From an uncultured Gammaproteobacteria bacterium (GTDB lineage Bacteria; Patescibacteriota; Microgenomatia; UBA12405; JAHJSD01), in the NCBI GenBank assembly GCA_964536585.1, contig CAZHXO010000001.1, forward strand, positions 1-38,028: a stretch of DNA of 38,028 nt, written 5' to 3'. The notes under the pieces were generated by a model. It did not search any database. It was not told the DNA's origin and saw only the letters and a program-made list of their open reading frames with translations. This document shows, piece after piece, positions 3,006-37,503 of this stretch. Position 1 is the first letter of the stretch. Each line of letters opens with the position of its first letter. The translations under genes were made by a program, and so were the position numbers.

Positions 3006-5258
3006 ATGAAAAAGAAGAAACGACATTTACAACGCGGTGCCGTCCAAGCACCGCTTATTATTGGTTTATTGCTTATTGGTTTAGCCCTTCCGGCTGCACT
3101 TCAATTAGTCCAGCAAAGACAGGAAACCAGGAAAGCAGCAATAGATAATCAAGAAGAATGTGAAGCTGTGGGGCACACCTGGTGCGGTAGTGGTACTTGC
3201 CCTGATGGTTGGTCTTATGGTCCTGGCTGTTGGACGGGTGGGAGTTGTGAAGCTAGACACGAGGAAGCTTGTGCTGATCACCAAGGAGGCGGAGACGGTG
3301 ATACGGGCGGTACTGATTGTAGTGATGTTTATAATAGAGACCTAAGCGGATATTCTTGTGAGAATGGAGTGTTAGTTGATGCCAATGGGAATAGGGCGGA
3401 TAAACAGAAATGGTGTGGGACTGGATGCCCTTCTACAGTAGAAACAAACAGCGACTGTTGTGATGGACAGGATATATGCCAATGTGCTAGTGCGGAGATA
3501 GAACCGACTAGACCACCCCCAACAGCCACGCCAGTTCCTGATGATGTTGAATGTTATTGTTACGGAAGTTGTGACACAGCTAATTGTCAATGGAGTGAGG
3601 TGGATCCCTTTGGGAATATGGGAGCGCTTTGTGATGACAGCAAGTGTGAGGGTGAACCAACCGCAACTCCAATGCCGACAGAAAGTTATGTTCAATGTGA
3701 TGTTGCCCATGAAATATGCGTTTCATCAATCGGGGAATGCCAATCAGGCACAGTTGATTTTAACAGAAAGTGCGGCCAGGACAGCGGCGGATATAAATAT
3801 TGTTGTCAGCCAAAATCTGAGCCAACCGCGACTCCTACACCCGATTGCCGTCCAGACGGCTATAATTGTAGTATGCTGACCGCTGGTTCAACTCATTGTA
3901 GTTGGTGTTGTAATGGTTATCATTGGGCAGGAGCGTTGAGTGGTGGTTATATTTGTGGACCAGGGGAAGATGATACACCTGAATGTGGTTCCAATCAATG
4001 TTATTCAGGCCGCTATAGCACCTGCCGGGATAATTGTTTTACTGAAGGCAATCAGATTTGTTGTAATGGTGAGTGGAAGCTGGAATCAGAAGGCTGTGCC
4101 GCTTGTGAAGTAACTCCTACTCCCGGAATTGATACCTGTGGTTATGGCGGAGACCCAGATGCCGGGGTTTGTCGAGTAGGGGGTTGTGAAGCTGGGGAAA
4201 AAGCAGTAGATCCGACAGATTGTGCTGGGTATAATGAAGTGTGTTGTGTACCTGAAGTTGACTCTGATGTTGAATGTTATTGTTACGGAAGTTGTGACAC
4301 AGCTAATTGTCAATGGAGTGAGGTGGATCCCTTTGGGAATATGGGAGCGCTTTGTGATGACAGCAAGTGTGAGGGTGAACCAACCGCAACTCCAATGCCG
4401 ACAGAAAGTTATGTTCAATGTGATGTTGCCCATGAAATATGCGTTTCATCAATCGGGGAATGCCAATCAGGCACAGTTGATTTTAACAGAAAGTGCGGCC
4501 AGGACAGCGGCGGATATAAATATTGTTGTCAGCCAAAATCTGAGCCAACCGCGACTCCTCAACCAACCGCGACTCCTCAACCAACTGCGACCCCAACTGA
4601 GTCTGAAGGCGAGCCAGGACCGGGGCCAGGAGAACCGACAGCTACCCCGCCAGCAAATCCGACTGAGTCTCCTACTGAGCCGGGCGAGGAATGTCCTTAT
4701 GATTCTTTACAATCCCGGATTCAAGTCAACGCTCAAACTAATTGGCAAAAAGAACTGGATGTTGAAGTGGGCGATACCATCAATTTAGGCTGTATGCATG
4801 ATGGAAGTGGTAGTTTAGCCAGCAATGTAGTTTTGGTTGCTGACGGGCCAATTAAGAAAGAATGGAATAGAAATAATCAGGATAGTGGAACTGAAGGAAG
4901 AGTTACCGGGTGGGAGGTTCCCCAATCTGGTAGTTATCGTATTTATTGTTATTCAACCGATGATAACTGCAGTGGAATGAATTCCGGTGCTGACAGTTCA
5001 GTTTTGGATGCTGCACCCACTGGCTGTAAACCTTGTCCAGATGGTAGTTACGTAGCCTTGGGAGCCACCAGTTATAGTTGTCAGACTGATGGAACCTCTT
5101 TGGATGACTTTATTGGCTGGAAAGAACAATACATAAAGGTTTTTTATCACAACCAACAGATCCCAGCTAGTCAATTATATGCTGATTACGATTGTGACGG
5201 CACGATTGGTGTAAATGACATAATATTATGGAAAGAGAAATATTTAGAAACTCTTTGA
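3006..5258 (+). CDS. secreted cysteine-rich modular protein with Pro/Thr linkers, a duplicated module pair and a C-terminal dockerin-like segment
   Basis: N-terminal KKKKR plus hydrophobic signal/anchor. About 66 Cys in 750 aa by my count. Cys-rich modules of about 40 aa end in CC(Q/V)P and are separated by EPTATP linkers. The C-terminus TDGTSLDDFIGWKEQY...DYDCDGTIGVNDIILWKEKY looks like a two-segment dockerin. TGA stop. Confidence 0.8.
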   Translation: MKKKKRHLQRGAVQAPLIIGLLLIGLALPAALQLVQQRQETRKAAIDNQEECEAVGHTWCGSGTCPDGWSYGPGCWTGGSCEARHEEACADHQGGGDGDTGGTDCSDVYNRDLSGYSCENGVLVDANGNRADKQKWCGTGCPSTVETNSDCCDGQDICQCASAEIEPTRPPPTATPVPDDVECYCYGSCDTANCQWSEVDPFGNMGALCDDSKCEGEPTATPMPTESYVQCDVAHEICVSSIGECQSGTVDFNRKCGQDSGGYKYCCQPKSEPTATPTPDCRPDGYNCSMLTAGSTHCSWCCNGYHWAGALSGGYICGPGEDDTPECGSNQCYSGRYSTCRDNCFTEGNQICCNGEWKLESEGCAACEVTPTPGIDTCGYGGDPDAGVCRVGGCEAGEKAVDPTDCAGYNEVCCVPEVDSDVECYCYGSCDTANCQWSEVDPFGNMGALCDDSKCEGEPTATPMPTESYVQCDVAHEICVSSIGECQSGTVDFNRKCGQDSGGYKYCCQPKSEPTATPQPTATPQPTATPTESEGEPGPGPGEPTATPPANPTESPTEPGEECPYDSLQSRIQVNAQTNWQKELDVEVGDTINLGCMHDGSGSLASNVVLVADGPIKKEWNRNNQDSGTEGRVTGWEVPQSGSYRIYCYSTDDNCSGMNSGADSSVLDAAPTGCKPCPDGSYVALGATSYSCQTDGTSLDDFIGWKEQYIKVFYHNQQIPASQLYADYDCDGTIGVNDIILWKEKYLETL
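3542..3836 (+). repeat. copy 1 of a 295-bp perfect direct repeat inside the Cys-rich CDS
   Basis: Base-for-base identical by eye to 4265-4559. The 723-nt offset equals 241 codons, so it is in frame. Confidence 0.9.
4265..4559 (+). repeat. copy 2 of the 295-bp perfect direct repeat inside the Cys-rich CDS
   Basis: Identical to 3542-3836. Both encode DVECYCYGSCDTANCQW...GGYKYCCQPKSEPTATP. Confidence 0.9.
4545..4598 (+). repeat. 18-bp tandem repeat x3 (two perfect, one diverged) encoding the PTATPQ linker
   Basis: ccaaccgcgactcctcaa at 4545-4562 and 4563-4580, then ccaactgcgaccccaact at 4581-4598. Confidence 0.85.
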
Positions 5259-18137: not shown

Positions 18138-18171
18138 CAAATTTAACTCAGCGATCGCCGAACTAAATTTT
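18138..18171. repeat. 34-bp CGATCG-centred imperfect palindrome, family A copy 1
   Basis: caaatttaactcag-CGATCG-ccgaactaaatttt, identical to 18874-18907. It overlaps the stop codon of CDS 18163-18840 and follows the prfA stop by 3 nt. A T-run follows on the + strand. Confidence 0.9.
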
Positions 18172-18840
18172 TAATTTTTTCTGGGCGAAAAGCTTGAAAA
18201 TTGTTTTTAATGGCCAGGTTGACGGGAGTAAATCTAAAGGAACTTTTGGATGTTGGGAAACTAAATCCCAGAATTGAAGTTGTAATTCTTCAGATAGTTT
18301 CCTTTCTTTTTTAAGTTTTTGCTTCCAGCTATTTGCTTTATTTTTCCATTGATGAACTTCCCATTTTTCCTCGATAATTTTCCGGGGATCACAACGTAAT
18401 ATTTTACCCTCAATAACACCTAGGTAATTAGTATCATCAATTTGTTTATCCAGTTGTCTAATTTTGTCAGTTAAGGGAAGAGGGGAGAACCAAACCGAGC
18501 GTTGAAAGAATTTAAAATCCCATTCTTTTAGTCGCCGTCGAATTAAATCCCGGGCAGTTTTATTTTTTTGCGGGATATCGAAAACCACGAATCGCCATTT
18601 TTTATCCCAAGGCTTTTTTATTAATTTCAAAATTGACTCAGGTTTTTGTTTAAAGGTTAAATCGGGATTCAAAACACCCTTTTTAATGAAATAGTTTTTT
18701 GTGCTTCTTACTCCTGCGCACAACCAATCGTCAAGGGTTGGTATTTTTCTTGTATCGGTATGAAAGTAATCGTAAAACAAAATCATTAAGTCTTCAGCAG
18801 TTCTAAGGGTTTGAAGTAATTTTGACTTTCTTTTTTGCAC
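18163..18840 (-). CDS. PaaX-like protein with Cas2-like central domain (paralog 1)
   Basis: KKWRFVVFDIPQKNKTARDLIRRRLKEWDFKFFQRSVWFSPLP is the PaaX-middle/Cas2-like motif. It is homologous along its length to CDS 29744-30409. The ORF is open to a TTG at 18876, but alignment with the paralog and the promoter layout favour the GTG at 18838-18840. Confidence 0.7.
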   Translation of the reverse strand: MQKRKSKLLQTLRTAEDLMILFYDYFHTDTRKIPTLDDWLCAGVRSTKNYFIKKGVLNPDLTFKQKPESILKLIKKPWDKKWRFVVFDIPQKNKTARDLIRRRLKEWDFKFFQRSVWFSPLPLTDKIRQLDKQIDDTNYLGVIEGKILRCDPRKIIEEKWEVHQWKNKANSWKQKLKKERKLSEELQLQFWDLVSQHPKVPLDLLPSTWPLKTIFKLFAQKKLKI

Positions 18841-18846
18841 ACTTAA

Positions 18847-18876
18847 TTTATACCCCTTTTTAAGAGTGAAAGTCAA
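18847..18876 (-). promoter_or_regulatory. promoter of PaaX-like paralog 1, abutting the upstream palindrome
   Basis: On the minus strand: TTGACT (18876-18871), 18-nt spacer, TATAAA (18852-18847), 6 nt, GTG. The -35 box overlaps the end of repeat A2 by 3 nt. Confidence 0.5.
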
Positions 18877-18907
18877 ATTTAACTCAGCGATCGCCGAACT
18901 AAATTTT
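18874..18907. repeat. 34-bp CGATCG-centred imperfect palindrome, family A copy 2
   Basis: Identical to 18138-18171. It lies between the hisS stop (18913) and the promoter of the PaaX-like gene. Confidence 0.9.
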
Positions 18908-27830: not shown

Positions 27831-27965
27831 GGAAGAGGGGAGAGGTAGTTATCCTATAACAGTAATCCCATAATATTTATAATTATTATCCTATAATATT
27901 AAATCCCAATTGTGAAAATTATAGGACTATTTTCATGTTTAGCAGCTAATTATTTAAAGTGCTAG

Positions 27966-27988
27966 AAGCACCTATCTAAGTGCTTTTT
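27966..27988 (+). terminator. candidate intrinsic terminator with a competing upstream hairpin
   Basis: aagcac-ctatctaa-gtgctt followed by TTT. GTGCT at 27959-27963 can pair with AGCAC at 27967-27971 instead. Confidence 0.35.
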
Positions 27989-28271
27989 GGGCATAGACAG
28001 GAAAAAGTAGCAGTTAATTTGTGGAAAACTATTATCGTTTGGGGAAGGGGTGTTTTAGATTCTTTTACCAAGATAGCACAGGAAGAAAGTAACTCTAAAC
28101 TTTTTTGAATATCCTGCAAATAAAATAAATAAACTTTAAAAAGCTTACTTCTTCAAAAACCATCTGTTTAATAAAAGGATATTTCATAGAGAGCAAAATT
28201 ATTATATGTCGTACAATGTTTCTTTTGCGACGCGCTAATTATTGTGAAGGCGAGGAGGGTGTAAAATTCAC

Positions 28272-28295
28272 AATTTTCAAATTTTCAAATTTTCC
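28272..28295. repeat. 8-bp tandem repeat aattttca x3 (last copy aattttcc)
   Basis: Read directly. Phased A/T tracts. Confidence 0.8.
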
Positions 28296-28684
28296 AAAAT
28301 AAAAAATTAAACTCCTATTTTATTTGAACATTGAACTTTTAAACATTGATGTTTTTAGTTACTTTTATCTTAATTAAGCTTTATACTTAAAGCTTTTATC
28401 AGTCCTCTATTTTAAAAAATTATCTTAGAGAAACATTAAATCTTATTTGTGGCCGTTAGCAAAAGGGTAATTGTATAGACATGCTTGCAAAAACCGCTTA
28501 GAATGGCTCTCATAACTTTACCCCTAATAACAGGCAGAAACTCAATTATAGTCTTTCAAAATGGTTAATTTTTATTATTTTTTAGAAATTTAATTCTCTG
28601 TTTATAAAAAATTCTAAAAAATTTTAATAAAATTTTACTTTCTCATTTATTTACTTTTTATTTTTTTAATAACGTCGCACAATC

Positions 28685-29717: not shown

Positions 29718-29751
29718 TCAACTATCCTTTACGATCGTAGGGTTTATTTGA
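29718..29751. repeat. 34-bp CGATCG-centred imperfect palindrome, family B copy 1
   Basis: tcaactatccttta-CGATCG-tagggtttatttga. 28/34 identical to 30444-30477. It overlaps the stop codon of CDS 29744-30409. Confidence 0.85.
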
Positions 29752-30409
29752 AGGGTGCATTTAATTTTGTAAATTGTTTAATTACCTTTTTTAGGGGCCA
29801 GTCTGGAGGTAAAAGTTCTAGTGGGATTTTAGGGTGGTTTAAAACTAAACCCCAAAATTTTTGGTTGTATTCATCCCTTTGTAGTTTGTTTTGGTTATTT
29901 AATAACGATTGAGCCTTTTCATTCCAGGATTCTATTTCCCATAAAGATTTAACGATTTTCTTTGATTCTTTAGGAGGTAGCTTACTGGTAAAAAGATAGA
30001 ATGCTTTATAGTCACTAACTTTTTGTTTTATTTGTTTGATCTTTTTATCAGTCGGTAAAGGGCTTATCCAAGCAGAACGTTGTAGGTTTTTGAATCCAAA
30101 TCGTTTTAAAGACTTTCTTAGTTTATCGCGTGTTAGGCGATTTTTTTCAGGAATGTCAAATAAAACTAGCCGCCATTTTTTATCCCATTTATTCAGGAGT
30201 TTAAATAAGTTAAATGATTTTTCCTTTAATTCAAGATTTTCTGTTATTAGTCCTTGCTCAATTGAATACCATTTGCTTTTTTGTAATTTTATTTTTGGGA
30301 AACCGATACTTTGAGTTATCCATAATGGATCTCGGAAGTAGCTGTCAAAGAGTATTAAAAAATCCTCGGCAACTCTTAATATTTCAACTAACCGATTTCT
30401 TCTAGGCAT
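29744..30409 (-). CDS. PaaX-like protein with Cas2-like central domain (paralog 2)
   Basis: KKWRLVLFDIPEKNRLTRDKLRKSLKRFGFKNLQRSAWISPLP. C-terminal FWGLVLNHPKIPLELLPPDWPLKK matches FWDLVSQHPKVPLDLLPSTWPLKT in paralog 1. Confidence 0.75.
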   Translation of the reverse strand: MPRRNRLVEILRVAEDFLILFDSYFRDPLWITQSIGFPKIKLQKSKWYSIEQGLITENLELKEKSFNLFKLLNKWDKKWRLVLFDIPEKNRLTRDKLRKSLKRFGFKNLQRSAWISPLPTDKKIKQIKQKVSDYKAFYLFTSKLPPKESKKIVKSLWEIESWNEKAQSLLNNQNKLQRDEYNQKFWGLVLNHPKIPLELLPPDWPLKKVIKQFTKLNAPFK

Positions 30410-30417
30410 CTATTATT

Positions 30418-30447
30418 AGATTAAAACATAAGTTTGGAAGAAGTCAA
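30418..30447 (-). promoter_or_regulatory. promoter of PaaX-like paralog 2, abutting the upstream palindrome
   Basis: On the minus strand: TTGACT (30447-30442), 18-nt spacer, TAATCT (30423-30418), 8 nt, ATG, with no SD. The -35 box overlaps the end of repeat B2 by 4 nt, the same layout as paralog 1. Confidence 0.45.
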
Positions 30448-30477
30448 CTATCCTCTGCGATCGTAGGAAATAGTTGA
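30444..30477. repeat. 34-bp CGATCG-centred imperfect palindrome, family B copy 2
   Basis: tcaactatcctctg-CGATCG-taggaaatagttga, with outer 8-bp arms tcaactat/atagttga perfectly complementary. It lies between the gyrA stop (30508) and the PaaX-like promoter. Confidence 0.85.
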
Positions 30478-37473: not shown

Positions 37474-37503
37474 CCACTTAAGCGACGATCGTCTTTTAAG
37501 TGG
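37474..37503 (-). terminator. CGATCG-centred palindrome (family C), likely terminator of the upstream GH130-like gene
   Basis: ccacttaagcga-CGATCG-tcttttaagtgg, with outer 8 bp perfectly complementary. On the minus strand it is followed by TGTATTTTT. Confidence 0.55.

What the first reader, a model, noticed from the sequence alone, without database searches (positions are those of the whole stretch)
29718..30477. Second 760-bp cassette of the same design, next to the tyrosine recombinase
Seen: a diverged paralog (roughly 40% identity by eye) of the PaaX-like gene is bracketed by tcaactatccttta-CGATCG-tagggtttatttga (29718-29751) and tcaactatcctctg-CGATCG-taggaaatagttga (30444-30477). The two copies are 28/34 identical, 726 bp apart and in direct orientation. 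The layout matches cassette 1. The stop codon lies inside the downstream repeat. A TTGACT -35 box overlaps the inner end of the upstream repeat with an 18-nt spacer. The location is between convergent genes (recombinase and gyrA). The arm sequences differ completely from family A, but the CGATCG core and the 14+6+14 geometry are the same. The XerC/D-like recombinase ends 44 nt from the cassette. Established: tyrosine recombinase sites are two inverted arms around a 6-8 bp central region. Xer-exploiting elements (IMEX such as CTX phage and the gonococcal island) and Acinetobacter pdif modules are bounded by dif-like sites. Inference: these may be small Xer- or tyrosine-recombinase-mobilised gene cassettes. 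Alternatively, they may be autoregulated units whose operator is copied at both ends.
Basis: partly seen in the sequence, partly recalled or inferred. Interest (0 to 1): 0.8.

Follow-up and report, generated by a model that had tools for sequence, protein, structure and literature searches.

The report
Regulator gene bracketed by matching palindromes
A small PaaX/Cas2-like DNA-binding protein gene sits between two copies of its own private palindrome, a layout that recurs across the tiny-genome Patescibacteria and looks like a self-contained regulatory unit, not a recombinase-moved cassette.

Summary
Two 34-nt imperfect palindromes (28/34 identical, 726 nt apart, CGATCG centre) bracket a 221-aa gene at 29744-30409(-). 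A 40%-identical paralogue at 18163-18876(-) has the same layout with different arms.

The protein has the three-domain PaaX repressor fold, but its Cas2-like domain keeps Cas2's own sequence motifs.

The layout is family-wide. In 80 mostly Patescibacteria loci, 42 of 69 scorable family genes have a matching repeat on both sides, against 3 of 266 neighbouring genes. Arms differ at every locus. The centre is usually CGATCG or another CGNNCG.

The upstream copy overlaps the promoter region and the downstream copy abuts or overlaps the stop codon. Symmetry is split between a core and outer arms.

Both window cassettes sit at the same positions in a related genome whose flanking genes are 71-87% identical, so they are old residents. 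A tyrosine recombinase lies nearby at only two independent loci. Here it is a conserved Xer-type gene that relatives keep without the cassette.

Best reading: an autoregulated repressor with its operator copied at both gene ends. I found no evidence for Xer mobilisation. A nuclease or recombination role for the Cas2-like domain is not excluded. I found no published description.

The parts
30444..30477 (.). Upstream (promoter-side) palindrome of cassette 2: TCAACTAT..CGATCG..ATAGTTGA. Proposed operator.
   Evidence: family D20; 13/17 arm pairs; 0/1000 shuffles. It is the more symmetric of the two copies.
30418..30447 (-). Promoter-like TTGACT-18 nt-TAATCT, 8 nt before the ATG (leaderless-like). 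The -35 overlaps the palindrome by 4 nt.
   Evidence: Read. The same TTGAC(A/T)-17/18-(-10-like) arrangement on the palindrome edge occurs in cassette 1, L001, L007, L008 and L037. It falls below the threshold of the consensus scan.
29744..30409 (-). Cassette-2 gene, 221 aa: winged-helix-like N domain, Cas2-like PaaX_M domain, helical C domain.
   Evidence: PF20803, 76 bits; AF2 pLDDT 91.5; Foldseek top hit E. coli PaaX 8a39, E=2.7e-7, TM 0.60.
29718..29751 (.). Downstream palindrome of cassette 2. It contains the gene's TAA stop. One arm is of the type seen in L001 and the other is of the window type.
   Evidence: The stop lies inside the arm at the same -9 offset as in L001, L007 and L008, and at -8 in cassette 1.
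18875..18906 (.). Upstream palindrome of cassette 1: AAATTTAACTCAG-CGATCG-CCGAACTAAATTT.
   Evidence: (D14).
18847..18876 (-). Promoter-like TTGACT-18 nt-TATAAA of cassette 1, 6 nt before a GTG.
   Evidence: Read. The geometry matches cassette 2.
18163..18840 (-). Cassette-1 gene. The mechanical ORF runs to a TTG at 18876 (237 aa). The probable start is the GTG at 18840 (225 aa, the same length as ortholog L008).
   Evidence: PF20803, 64 bits; L008 ortholog is 225 aa. The choice of start codon is an inference.
18139..18170 (.). Downstream palindrome of cassette 1. It overlaps the stop codon and lies 4 nt from the convergent prfB-like stop.
   Evidence: the only one of the four sites scored as terminator-like.
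37474..37503 (.). Solo palindrome of the same design (CCACTTAAGCGACGA|TCGTCTTTTAAGTGG, CGATCG centre) with no PaaX-like gene beside it. It lies between the GH130 gene stop and the Trp/Tyr-tRNA synthetase start.
   Evidence: Whether it belongs to the system (target of another paralogue, or scar of a lost cassette) is unknown.

Best explanation
Each cassette is a self-contained regulatory unit. It encodes a dimeric PaaX-type DNA-binding protein and carries that protein's private palindromic operator twice.

Proposed binding mode: the variable N-terminal winged-helix domains read the variable outer arms, about 10-16 bp either side of the dyad. The conserved Cas2-like dimer core sits over the conserved CG-NN-CG centre.

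The copy on the 5' side overlaps the gene's own promoter, which drives a leaderless or nearly leaderless mRNA. A bound dimer there would repress its own synthesis.

The copy on the 3' side abuts or overlaps the stop codon. It most likely cooperates with the upstream site by looping the roughly 600-750 bp gene. It may also act as a protein roadblock or insulator against the tightly packed neighbouring genes.

Protein and sites co-diverge quickly, which keeps paralogues in one genome from cross-talking.

The unit is chromosomal and vertically inherited. It is not moved by the neighbouring Xer recombinase.

Shown here: the fold, the family-wide gene-palindrome association, the site anatomy and positions, the synteny and the divergence pattern. 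Inferred: binding, repression, looping or roadblock, and the division of labour between domains.
For: Fold and family:
- PaaX_M hit at 76 bits.
- Confident model whose best PDB matches are the repressor PaaX 8a39 and Rv0674 3kfw. PaaX is a DNA-binding repressor (PMC4498308).

Specific association:
- A matching flanking repeat occurs in 42/69 family genes against 3/266 neighbouring ORFs, Fisher p=2e-31.
- Zero-spacer palindromes: 66 in 478 kb of loci, none in shuffled sequence; 48 lie within 400 nt of the matched part of a family gene, and several just beyond are upstream copies.
- Half-sites occur only at the gene flanks within each locus.
- Only 3 CGATCG-centred palindromes lie away from family genes in 640 kb.

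Operator-like position:
- The upstream palindrome ends 50 nt or less before the first in-frame ATG in 34 of 45 loci.
- In the long subfamily a TTGAC(A/T) -35 sits on the arm edge.

Dimer-like site anatomy:
- Symmetry is 0.9-1.0 at positions 1-4, 0.71-0.79 at 5-9, and mostly high again (0.71-1.0) at 10-16. It falls off from about 17 to background by 19-22. Both subfamilies show this.
- There is no G.U bias among mismatches: 25 GT, 20 AC, 59 other.
- The window's sites fold weakly as single strands.

Co-divergence:
- Arm similarity tracks protein similarity (Mantel rho 0.19; 0 of 2000 permutations reached it).
- Same-genome paralogues (L042/L053, L035/L041) keep the inner bases but differ in the outer arms.
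- The N-terminal domain is the most diverged domain between paralogues, 31% against 47%.
- Orthologues keep related arms while the protein is only 58-64% identical and the neighbours are 71-87% identical.

Stability:
- Both cassettes are syntenic in a second genome.
- Identical proteins always have the same context.
Against: - No binding or expression data exist, and no regulon is visible. Genes downstream of the cassettes are unrelated housekeeping genes. It is unclear why reduced genomes keep several regulators that seem to control only themselves.
- A second operator at the 3' end, facing convergent genes in 16 of 43 loci including both window cassettes, is not a standard feature of autoregulators.
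- Some sites are perfect palindromes of 38-52 bp whose two copies differ from each other (L033, L036, L016). That is longer and more exact than a dimer footprint needs.
- In L001 and L005 the copy identity runs 15-40 nt beyond the palindrome, which points to DNA-level copying.
- Unlike true PaaX and Rv0674, this family keeps Cas2's beta-1 Asp and QxS motif, so a catalytic role cannot be dismissed.
- About a quarter of family genes examined have no recognisable palindrome.
- The -10 elements in the window are weak.
Confidence: 0.55

Rival explanations
1. The protein acts on the palindromes as an enzyme, not as a repressor. A wHTH-guided Cas2-type nuclease or strand-transfer factor would cut or recombine at the conserved core. 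The unit would then be a selfish or domesticated DNA element, analogous to a RAYT gene flanked by its REP palindromes, or an excisable or invertible cassette.
For: - The Cas2 hallmark residues (beta-1 Asp in FDIPE, and LQRSxW) are kept, whereas PaaX and Rv0674 have lost them. The Cas2 models pass their cut-offs for cassette 2.
- The two copies evolve in concert, and in L001 and L005 their identity extends beyond the palindrome.
- Individual sites stay perfectly symmetric even when the two copies differ.
- In L050, L065 and L039 the asymmetric centre is flipped between the copies.
- Solo palindromes exist.
- The cassette fills whole intergenic gaps between unrelated housekeeping genes, and the rec-gyrA gap is a variable spot in relatives.
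- Several contigs break at the palindromes.
Against: - I saw no presence/absence polymorphism, no identical copies in different contexts and no inversions.
- Same-genome paralogues all carry distinct arms.
- Both window cassettes predate the split from a genome whose flanking genes are 71-87% identical.
- Palindromes are not dispersed: about 3 solos in 640 kb.
- Only 1 hit in 2.9 million viral contigs.
- The empty rec-gyrA sites carry no solo palindrome.
- Cas2's own nuclease role is disputed (my knowledge), so the motifs may be structural.
Confidence: 0.2
2. The palindromes are mainly hairpin terminators or insulators, in RNA or extruded DNA, that isolate the small gene from its neighbours. 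Their sameness at both ends comes from gene conversion, and the protein does not read them.
For: - The palindromes abut stop codons of the upstream gene, of the cassette gene and of convergent neighbours, at 4-43 nt in the window.
- The cassette-1 downstream site is scored terminator-like.
- Some sites elsewhere have A-tract/T-tract flanks, for example L054.
- Quasi-palindrome correction by template switching, a known mutational process (my knowledge), could explain the perfect symmetry.
Against: - Other genes in the same loci lack such palindromes (3/266).
- The association is specific to one protein family.
- The conserved CGNNCG centre and the split symmetry profile are not expected of terminators.
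- There is no G.U bias.
- Cassette-2 sites are weak hairpins and have no T-run.
- The upstream copy overlaps promoter elements.
Confidence: 0.1
3. The gene was inserted into a pre-existing palindrome, for example a terminator with a CGATCG centre. The whole target was duplicated, as a CRISPR repeat is duplicated when Cas1-Cas2 integrates a spacer. On this view the arms are host sequence, not operator.
For: - The insert is flanked by direct copies of a 32-53 nt palindrome, and the arms are unrelated between loci.
- A solo CGATCG palindrome in the window could be an unoccupied target.
- The protein has a Cas2-like domain.
Against: - After a single ancestral insertion, the two copies in syntenic orthologues have changed together: cassette 1 against L008, and also the non-syntenic relative L037, where the core became CATATG in both copies. 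This needs continuing constraint or conversion.
- Promoter elements and the stop codon sit at fixed offsets on the arms.
- Arms co-vary with the protein.
- No CRISPR-like array is present in the window, and I did not look for a Cas1-like partner.
- Empty sites in relatives carry no palindrome.
Confidence: 0.05
4. One reading: the palindromes are dif-like sites, and the cassette is moved by the adjacent Xer or another tyrosine recombinase, like an IMEX or a pdif module.
For: - A Xer-type recombinase gene ends 43 nt from the cassette.
- The sites have two arms around a 6-bp centre.
- Single-recombinase Xer systems use fairly symmetric dif sites (my knowledge).
Against: - A recombinase lies within 3 kb at only 2 independent loci of about 80.
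- The recombinase keeps its synteny in relatives that lack the cassette.
- The three sites in this genome share only the core.
- A symmetric core gives recombination no direction.
- The copies are in direct, not inverted, orientation.
- There is no sign of mobility.
Confidence: 0.04

Closest known systems
PaaX, the phenylacetyl-CoA-responsive repressor of E. coli (PDB 8a39), and Rv0674 of M. tuberculosis (PDB 3kfw)
   Same: Same three-domain fold: winged helix, Cas2-like dimerisation domain and helical C domain (Foldseek E=2.7e-7 and 5.3e-6). PF20803 hit. The shared C-terminal 'P.vP.eLLP..WP' stretch aligns. PaaX is a DNA-binding repressor.
   Different: - Far below the PaaX equivalog cut-off: 47 bits against 264.55.
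- No paa genes are nearby.
- It keeps the Cas2 Asp and QxS motifs that PaaX and Rv0674 lack.
- The gene is bracketed on both sides by its own long palindrome.
- There are many paralogues per genome, each with private arms, and the family is mostly in Patescibacteria.
Cas2 of CRISPR-Cas adaptation modules
   Same: The central domain matches Cas2 in sequence (PF09827 26.5 bits, TIGR01573 30 bits for cassette 2) and in fold, including the beta-1 Asp. The repeats are palindromic and of CRISPR-repeat length.
   Different: - The protein is 221 aa, with DNA-binding and C-terminal domains added.
- There is no repeat array, and I did not look for cas1.
- There are two repeats about 700 nt apart enclosing the gene itself, not spacers.
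REP palindromes with their RAYT (TnpA-REP) genes
   Same: A vertically inherited single gene is flanked by its cognate palindromes. A genome holds several paralogues, each with its own palindrome family. The palindromes sit just after stop codons.
   Different: - There is no HUH/Y1 transposase domain.
- The palindromes are not dispersed in the sequence available.
- The copies are mostly direct, not inverted.
- These are zero-spacer palindromes with a conserved centre, not stems with a conserved 5' tetranucleotide.
Xer-dependent elements: IMEX (CTX phage, gonococcal island) and Acinetobacter pdif modules
   Same: A small unit is bounded by two sites, each with two arms around a 6-bp centre. A Xer-type gene lies next to this copy.
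   Different: The arms differ between cassettes in one genome. The core is symmetric. The copies are in direct orientation. There is no mobility signal, and the recombinase adjacency is not general.
Repressors with operators on both sides of their gene that cooperate by looping (phage lambda CI at OR and OL; my knowledge)
   Same: Operators of the same type flank the repressor gene at a distance of kilobases or less. One overlaps the repressor's promoter.
   Different: Here there is a single palindrome on each side. The far site sits on the stop codon of a one-gene unit. The protein family is unrelated, and looping is untested.

Membership tests
PaaX family (Pfam PF20803 PaaX_M / NCBIfam TIGR02277) | Central Cas2-like PaaX_M domain above Pfam's gathering score | tested here: met
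   76.2 bits (cassette 2) and 64.2 bits (cassette 1) against a cut-off of 24.
PaaX family (Pfam PF20803 PaaX_M / NCBIfam TIGR02277) | Full-length match to the PaaX equivalog model, meaning the same function as PaaX | tested here: not met
   TIGR02277 gives 47.1 and 32.9 bits against a cut-off of 264.55.
PaaX family (Pfam PF20803 PaaX_M / NCBIfam TIGR02277) | Three-domain PaaX fold | tested here: met
   AF2 model with pLDDT 91.5. Foldseek top hits are 8a39 PaaX (E=2.7e-7, TMq 0.60) and 3kfw.
PaaX family (Pfam PF20803 PaaX_M / NCBIfam TIGR02277) | Sequence-detectable PaaX N-terminal and C-terminal Pfam domains | tested here: not met
   No other PaaX Pfam family is listed at E<=0.01. The C-terminal similarity shows up only in the profile and fold comparisons.
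PaaX family (Pfam PF20803 PaaX_M / NCBIfam TIGR02277) | Control of a phenylacetate (paa) operon and response to phenylacetyl-CoA | not testable with these tools
   The annotated neighbours are gyrA, Xer, hisS and prfB. No ligand data exist.
CRISPR Cas2 | Cas2 domain above the model cut-off | tested here: inconclusive
   Cassette 2 passes: PF09827 26.5 bits against 23.8, and TIGR01573 30 against 24.5. Cassette 1 does not: 19.8 bits.
CRISPR Cas2 | Small stand-alone protein encoded next to cas1 and a CRISPR array | tested here: not met
   The protein is 221 aa with extra domains. The window has no repeat array. I did not search for cas1 specifically.
Xer-mobilised elements (IMEX / pdif modules) | Flanking sites that one host Xer recombinase can read, meaning conserved arms | tested here: not met
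   Cassette 1, cassette 2 and the solo site share only CGATCG.
Xer-mobilised elements (IMEX / pdif modules) | The same module found in different genomic contexts, or empty-site alleles bearing one site | tested here: not met
   Identical proteins always have the same context. The empty rec-gyrA junctions in L093 and L096 carry no palindrome, though these are distant relatives.
Xer-mobilised elements (IMEX / pdif modules) | pdif modules: flanking sites in inverted orientation | tested here: not met
   Where the sites are asymmetric, the direct register fits better in the window cassette-1 copies (32 against 26 matches), L001, L005 and others. The cassette-2 copies are in direct register. The definition of pdif modules is from my own knowledge.
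REP-RAYT | HUH/Y1 transposase-like protein | tested here: not met
   Only PaaX_M and Cas2 hits.
REP-RAYT | Cognate palindromes dispersed in many copies through the genome | tested here: inconclusive
   There are no extra copies within +/-3 kb except in L054, L013, L039 and L051, and 3 CGATCG solos in 640 kb. Whole genomes could not be scanned.
Integron gene cassettes | attC sites, an adjacent intI gene and cassette arrays | tested here: not met
   These are single units at scattered loci. There is no integron integrase: the recombinase matches Xer models best. The sites are zero-spacer palindromes.

The most novel reading that the evidence does not exclude
These units could be a Patescibacteria-wide class of Cas2-derived DNA elements. 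A winged-helix-guided Cas2-type dimer, with Cas2's own active-site motifs still in place, would cut or exchange strands at the conserved CGNNCG centre of its private palindromes. That would produce the bracketing copies, their concerted evolution and occasional solo sites. It would be the first DNA-acting system built on a Cas2 fold alone, and a possible relative of the repeat-recognising core of CRISPR adaptation.
Probability: 0.15. Interest if true: 0.88.

Novelty: new variant of a known kind. Interest (0 to 1): 0.62.

Why it matters
Patescibacteria have very small genomes, few recognisable regulators and almost no experimental genetics. This is a large, fast-evolving protein family: 2905 clusters at 50% identity, and 403 hits among representative genomes of 185,579 species. 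Its likely DNA target can be read directly from the sequence beside each gene.

That yields dozens of natural protein-site pairs. They can be used to work out a recognition code, to build orthogonal repressors, and to ask why minimal genomes keep several regulators that seem to regulate only themselves.

The family also sits between PaaX repressors and Cas2 in sequence. It therefore bears on how the Cas2 fold was recruited to, or from, DNA-repeat recognition.

On the practical side, these long palindromes break metagenome assemblies (contigs L009 and L047). Their proteins are routinely mislabelled 'Cas2' or 'PaaX'.

Tried and rejected
- **RNA-hairpin selection.** Mismatches in the palindromes show no G.U bias on the sense strand: 25 GT, 20 AC, 59 other. 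The window's sites are weak hairpins.
- **Known RNA family.** Rfam finds only a tRNA in the window.
- **Ordinary terminators.** Neighbouring genes lack such palindromes. Only one of the four window sites is scored terminator-like.
- **Recombinase linkage.** tblastn of the window recombinase against all loci found it only at the window's own locus type and weakly in L014.
- **Phage carriage.** There is one hit in the viral collection, and it has no palindromes.
- **REP-like dispersal.** No extra half-sites within loci and few solos.
- **Large duplication or TSD signature.** Identity beyond the palindrome is at background (about 6-7 of 20) except in L001 and L005.
- **Common regulon.** Co-directional downstream genes are unrelated: CobS, FtsW/RodA, LepA, ArgRS, a histidine phosphatase and others.
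- **Defence-system models.** Only Cas2 models match.
- **Literature.** Seven searches on PaaX, Cas2 and Patescibacteria palindromes found no description of this arrangement. The library omits most subscription-journal papers, so this is not proof of absence.
- **First structure model.** The model from 12 sequences was poor in the N domain. A deeper alignment fixed it.
Full report
**1. Observation**

The two 34-nt sequences are at 29718-29751 and 30444-30477. They are 28/34 identical, 726 nt apart and in the same register. None of 1000 shuffles of the downstream region gave as good a flanking repeat.

They bracket ORF 29744..30409 on the minus strand, 221 aa. Its TAA stop lies inside the downstream copy. 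Its ATG lies 34 nt from the upstream copy.

On the minus strand, TTGACT (30447-30442) overlaps that copy by 4 nt. An 18-nt spacer, TAATCT and 8 nt then lead to the ATG. The -10 is weak, and the consensus scan does not list the site.

Cassette 1 (ORF 18163..18876, minus strand) has the same layout. Its repeat is 42 nt, 93% identical and 736 nt apart, with the arms AAATTTAACTCAG/CCGAACTAAATTT around CGATCG. It also has TTGACT-18-TATAAA followed 6 nt later by a GTG at 18840. I take that GTG as the real start, because it gives 225 aa, the length of the orthologue in L008.

The two proteins are 40% identical.

**2. The protein**

Both proteins hit Pfam PaaX_M, described by Pfam as 'PaaX protein central Cas2-like domain', at 76 and 64 bits. 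Both also hit Cas2 models weakly.

A model built from 18 full-length relatives is confident (pLDDT 91.5, pTM 0.86). Its best PDB matches are the E. coli repressor PaaX (8a39; E=2.7e-7, TM 0.60) and Rv0674 (3kfw). Cas2 proteins follow, matching the central domain only.

The proteins are not PaaX orthologues: they score 47 bits against the equivalog cut-off of 264.55.

A profile-to-PDB alignment shows a difference from the solved PaaX-type structures. This family keeps Cas2's beta-1 Asp ('FDIPE') and its 'LQRSxW' motif. PaaX has 'LSEGL'/'LAPSL' there, and Rv0674 has 'VTSIG'/'LREGVW'.

An exhaustive search found 2905 clusters (50% identity) at E<=1e-3. Only 11 reach E<=1e-30. The window's long subfamily is therefore a small branch of a large family.

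**3. Census**

A scan of one genome per species found 403 relatives carrying the WDKKWR motif. I fetched the best 80 loci. Nearly all come from Patescibacteria MAGs, some of them mislabelled.

For each family gene I scored the best ungapped repeat shared by its upstream and downstream flanks.
- 42 of 69 scorable genes reach a score of 16 or more, against 3 of 266 neighbouring ORFs. Fisher's exact test gives p=2e-31.
- The repeats are 24-68 nt long, and almost all are zero-spacer palindromes.
- The loci hold 66 such palindromes in 478 kb, while shuffled sequence holds none. 48 lie within 400 nt of the matched part of a family gene, and several just beyond that limit are upstream copies.
- By a separate palindrome criterion, 35 genes have one at both ends, 21 at one end and 20 at neither.
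- The arms are unrelated between loci. The central six bases near family genes are CGATCG (24), CGGCCG (8), CGACCG or CGGTCG (6), CATATG (3) and a few others.
- Within a locus the half-site occurs only at the gene's flanks. The exceptions with a third copy are L054, L013, L039 and L051. In L054 the third copy closes off an FtsW/RodA gene.
- Away from family genes I found only three CGATCG-centred palindromes in 640 kb. One is in the window at 37474-37503.

**4. Anatomy of the sites**

*Upstream copy.* It ends 50 nt or less before the first in-frame ATG in 34 of 45 loci. In the long subfamily (both window cassettes, L001, L007, L008, L037) a TTGAC(A/T) sits on the outer edge of the arm. A -10-like hexamer follows 17-18 nt later, and the start codon 6-13 nt after that.

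*Downstream copy.* It begins between -9 and +40 nt of the stop codon. In four long-subfamily members the stop lies inside the arm at the same -9 offset, and in cassette 1 at -8.

*Symmetry, measured outward from the dyad.* It is 0.9-1.0 at positions 1-4, drops to 0.71-0.79 at 5-9, and is mostly high again (0.71-1.0) at 10-16. It falls off from about position 17 and reaches background by 19-22. Both subfamilies show this. A split pattern like this is what a dimer would give if it contacts a core and two outer half-sites. A hairpin stem would not give it.

*Mismatches and folding.* Mismatches show no G.U bias on the sense strand. The window's sites fold weakly as single strands, and the cassette-2 downstream site folds no better than shuffles.

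**5. Evolution**

*Synteny.* A related genome (GCA_964505765.1) carries both cassettes at the same places: gyrA-cassette-Xer (L001) and hisS-cassette-prfB (L008). Between the two genomes the flanking proteins are 71-87% identical. The cassette proteins are only 58% and 64% identical.

*The palindromes across relatives.*
- L001 has GTCAAATAACCATTA-CGATCG-TAGGGGTTATTTGAC in two copies, 52/53 identical.
- In the window, three of the four half-sites have changed to TCAACTAT. The fourth, which overlaps the last codons of the gene, keeps the arm type seen in L001.
- The cassette-1 relatives keep the outer AAATTTA while the inner bases change in both copies. In L037 the core itself became CATATG in both copies.

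*Co-variation.* Arm similarity correlates with protein similarity across 42 loci (Mantel rho 0.19; 0 of 2000 permutations reached it). Recent paralogues within one genome share the inner bases but differ in the outer arms. The N-terminal domain is the most diverged part of the protein between paralogues.

**6. Mobility and the recombinase**

The neighbouring recombinase is Xer-type. More distant relatives, with 50-61% identical recombinases, mostly keep the YebC-DUF5656-Xer/gyrA arrangement. None has a PaaX-like gene between Xer and gyrA. That gap is 10 nt in L093 and 48 nt in L096, with no palindrome, or it holds unrelated genes.

The cassette was therefore gained in the window's lineage or lost in the others. 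Xer is simply the resident neighbour.

- Across the census, a recombinase lies within 3 kb only at this locus type and weakly in L014.
- Identical proteins from different samples always sit in the same context.
- In a complete genome the cassette sits between pilB and pilC.
- The viral collection holds a single relative, without palindromes.

I found no sign of recent movement.

**7. What does not fit neatly**

- Some sites are perfect palindromes of 38-52 bp whose two copies differ from each other (L033, L036, L016). Symmetry is thus maintained within each site separately.
- In L050, L065 and L039 the asymmetric centre is flipped between the copies.
- In L001 and L005 the copy identity extends 15-40 nt beyond the palindrome.
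- These features point to DNA-level copying on top of any selection for binding. Candidates are template switching within quasi-palindromes and conversion between the two copies.
- Co-directional genes downstream of the cassettes are unrelated housekeeping genes, so no regulon is visible.
- In 16 of 43 loci, including both window cassettes, the 3' copy faces a convergent gene.

**8. Most likely mechanism**

The unit is an autoregulated PaaX-type repressor with a private operator at its promoter and a second copy on its stop codon.

The fold, the promoter overlap, the split symmetry, the co-divergence of arms and N domain, and the long-term syntenic stability support this reading.

Binding, repression and the job of the 3' copy (looping, roadblock or insulation) are inferences. 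I put this at 0.55.

The main rival, at 0.20, is that the Cas2-like domain is catalytically active on the palindromes. The other rivals are terminator-only (0.10), target duplication on insertion (0.05) and Xer mobilisation (0.04).

**9. Comparison and novelty**

The protein belongs to the PaaX_M superfamily but is not PaaX. It resembles Cas2 in its motifs but is not a CRISPR component.

The arrangement resembles RAYT genes flanked by REPs and repressor genes flanked by looping operators. It fails the defining tests of Xer/pdif modules, integron cassettes and REP-RAYT.

Seven literature searches found no description of it.

I rate it a new variant of a known kind: a repressor-operator unit with an unusual, family-wide bracketing architecture.

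**10. Caveats**

- Whole genomes could not be scanned, so the number of solo sites and paralogues per genome is unknown.
- Gene starts in the short subfamily are approximate.
- The census was seeded with one conserved peptide, so it favours WDKKWR-bearing members.
- Everything about function is inferred from sequence.

Noticed in passing
window 37474-37503: A solo palindrome CCACTTAAGCGACGA|TCGTCTTTTAAGTGG with a CGATCG centre lies between the GH130 gene stop (37519) and the Trp/Tyr-tRNA synthetase start (37431). It has no PaaX-like gene beside it, and its arms are unrelated to cassettes 1 and 2. It could be the target of a third paralogue or the scar of a lost cassette.
   Followed up: partly
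window 3542-3841 and 4265-4564: A 300-nt direct repeat, 99% identical and 723 nt apart, lies inside the 750-aa ORF 3006..5258. Proline/threonine-rich 18-nt tandem repeats follow at 4545-4591. This looks like a recently duplicated internal domain of a large, probably surface, protein.
   Followed up: no
window 27831-28684; also L001 7671-8635, L002 4069-4922: An AT-rich stretch of about 850-960 nt (27% GC) with no ORF of 60 aa or more lies between the DUF5656 gene and the Xer gene. A gap of similar size is kept in relatives (about 730 nt in L084). Rfam found nothing there.
   Followed up: no
L098 1104-3287, L100 2-2026, L102 2-1822: In three metagenome contigs the Xer-type recombinase match is split. 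Residues up to 283 and residues 271-326 are separated by about 1.2 kb. This suggests an insertion, such as an intron or a mobile element, inside the recombinase gene.
   Followed up: no
L087 5913-6416, L089 4439-4948, L094 7359-7874: The Xer-gyrA gap is a variable spot in relatives. Three contigs carry a conserved gene of 167-171 aa there (MKTIILPGYSP...), others carry 1.5-3 kb of unrelated genes, and two (L093, L096) are empty.
   Followed up: partly
L054 2559-4571; L023 3142-4292: In L054 a third copy of the palindrome follows an FtsW/RodA gene, so that gene is bracketed as well (palindrome - PaaX-like gene - palindrome - ftsW/rodA - palindrome). L023 also has FtsW/RodA directly after its cassette.
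   Followed up: partly
L106 2963-3684 (complete genome CP066687.1): A family member with TTATAAAATGCGATCGC(T/C)TATTATA on both sides sits between the pilB-like (T2SSE) and pilC-like (T2SSF) genes of a type IV pilus cluster.
   Followed up: partly
L047 1-32; L009 3651-3659: The contig behind L047 begins inside the palindrome, and the contig behind L009 ends at the 3' end of the family gene. The long palindromes apparently break short-read assemblies. Several source MAGs are also labelled 'uncultured Gammaproteobacteria' although their relatives are Patescibacteria.
   Followed up: no
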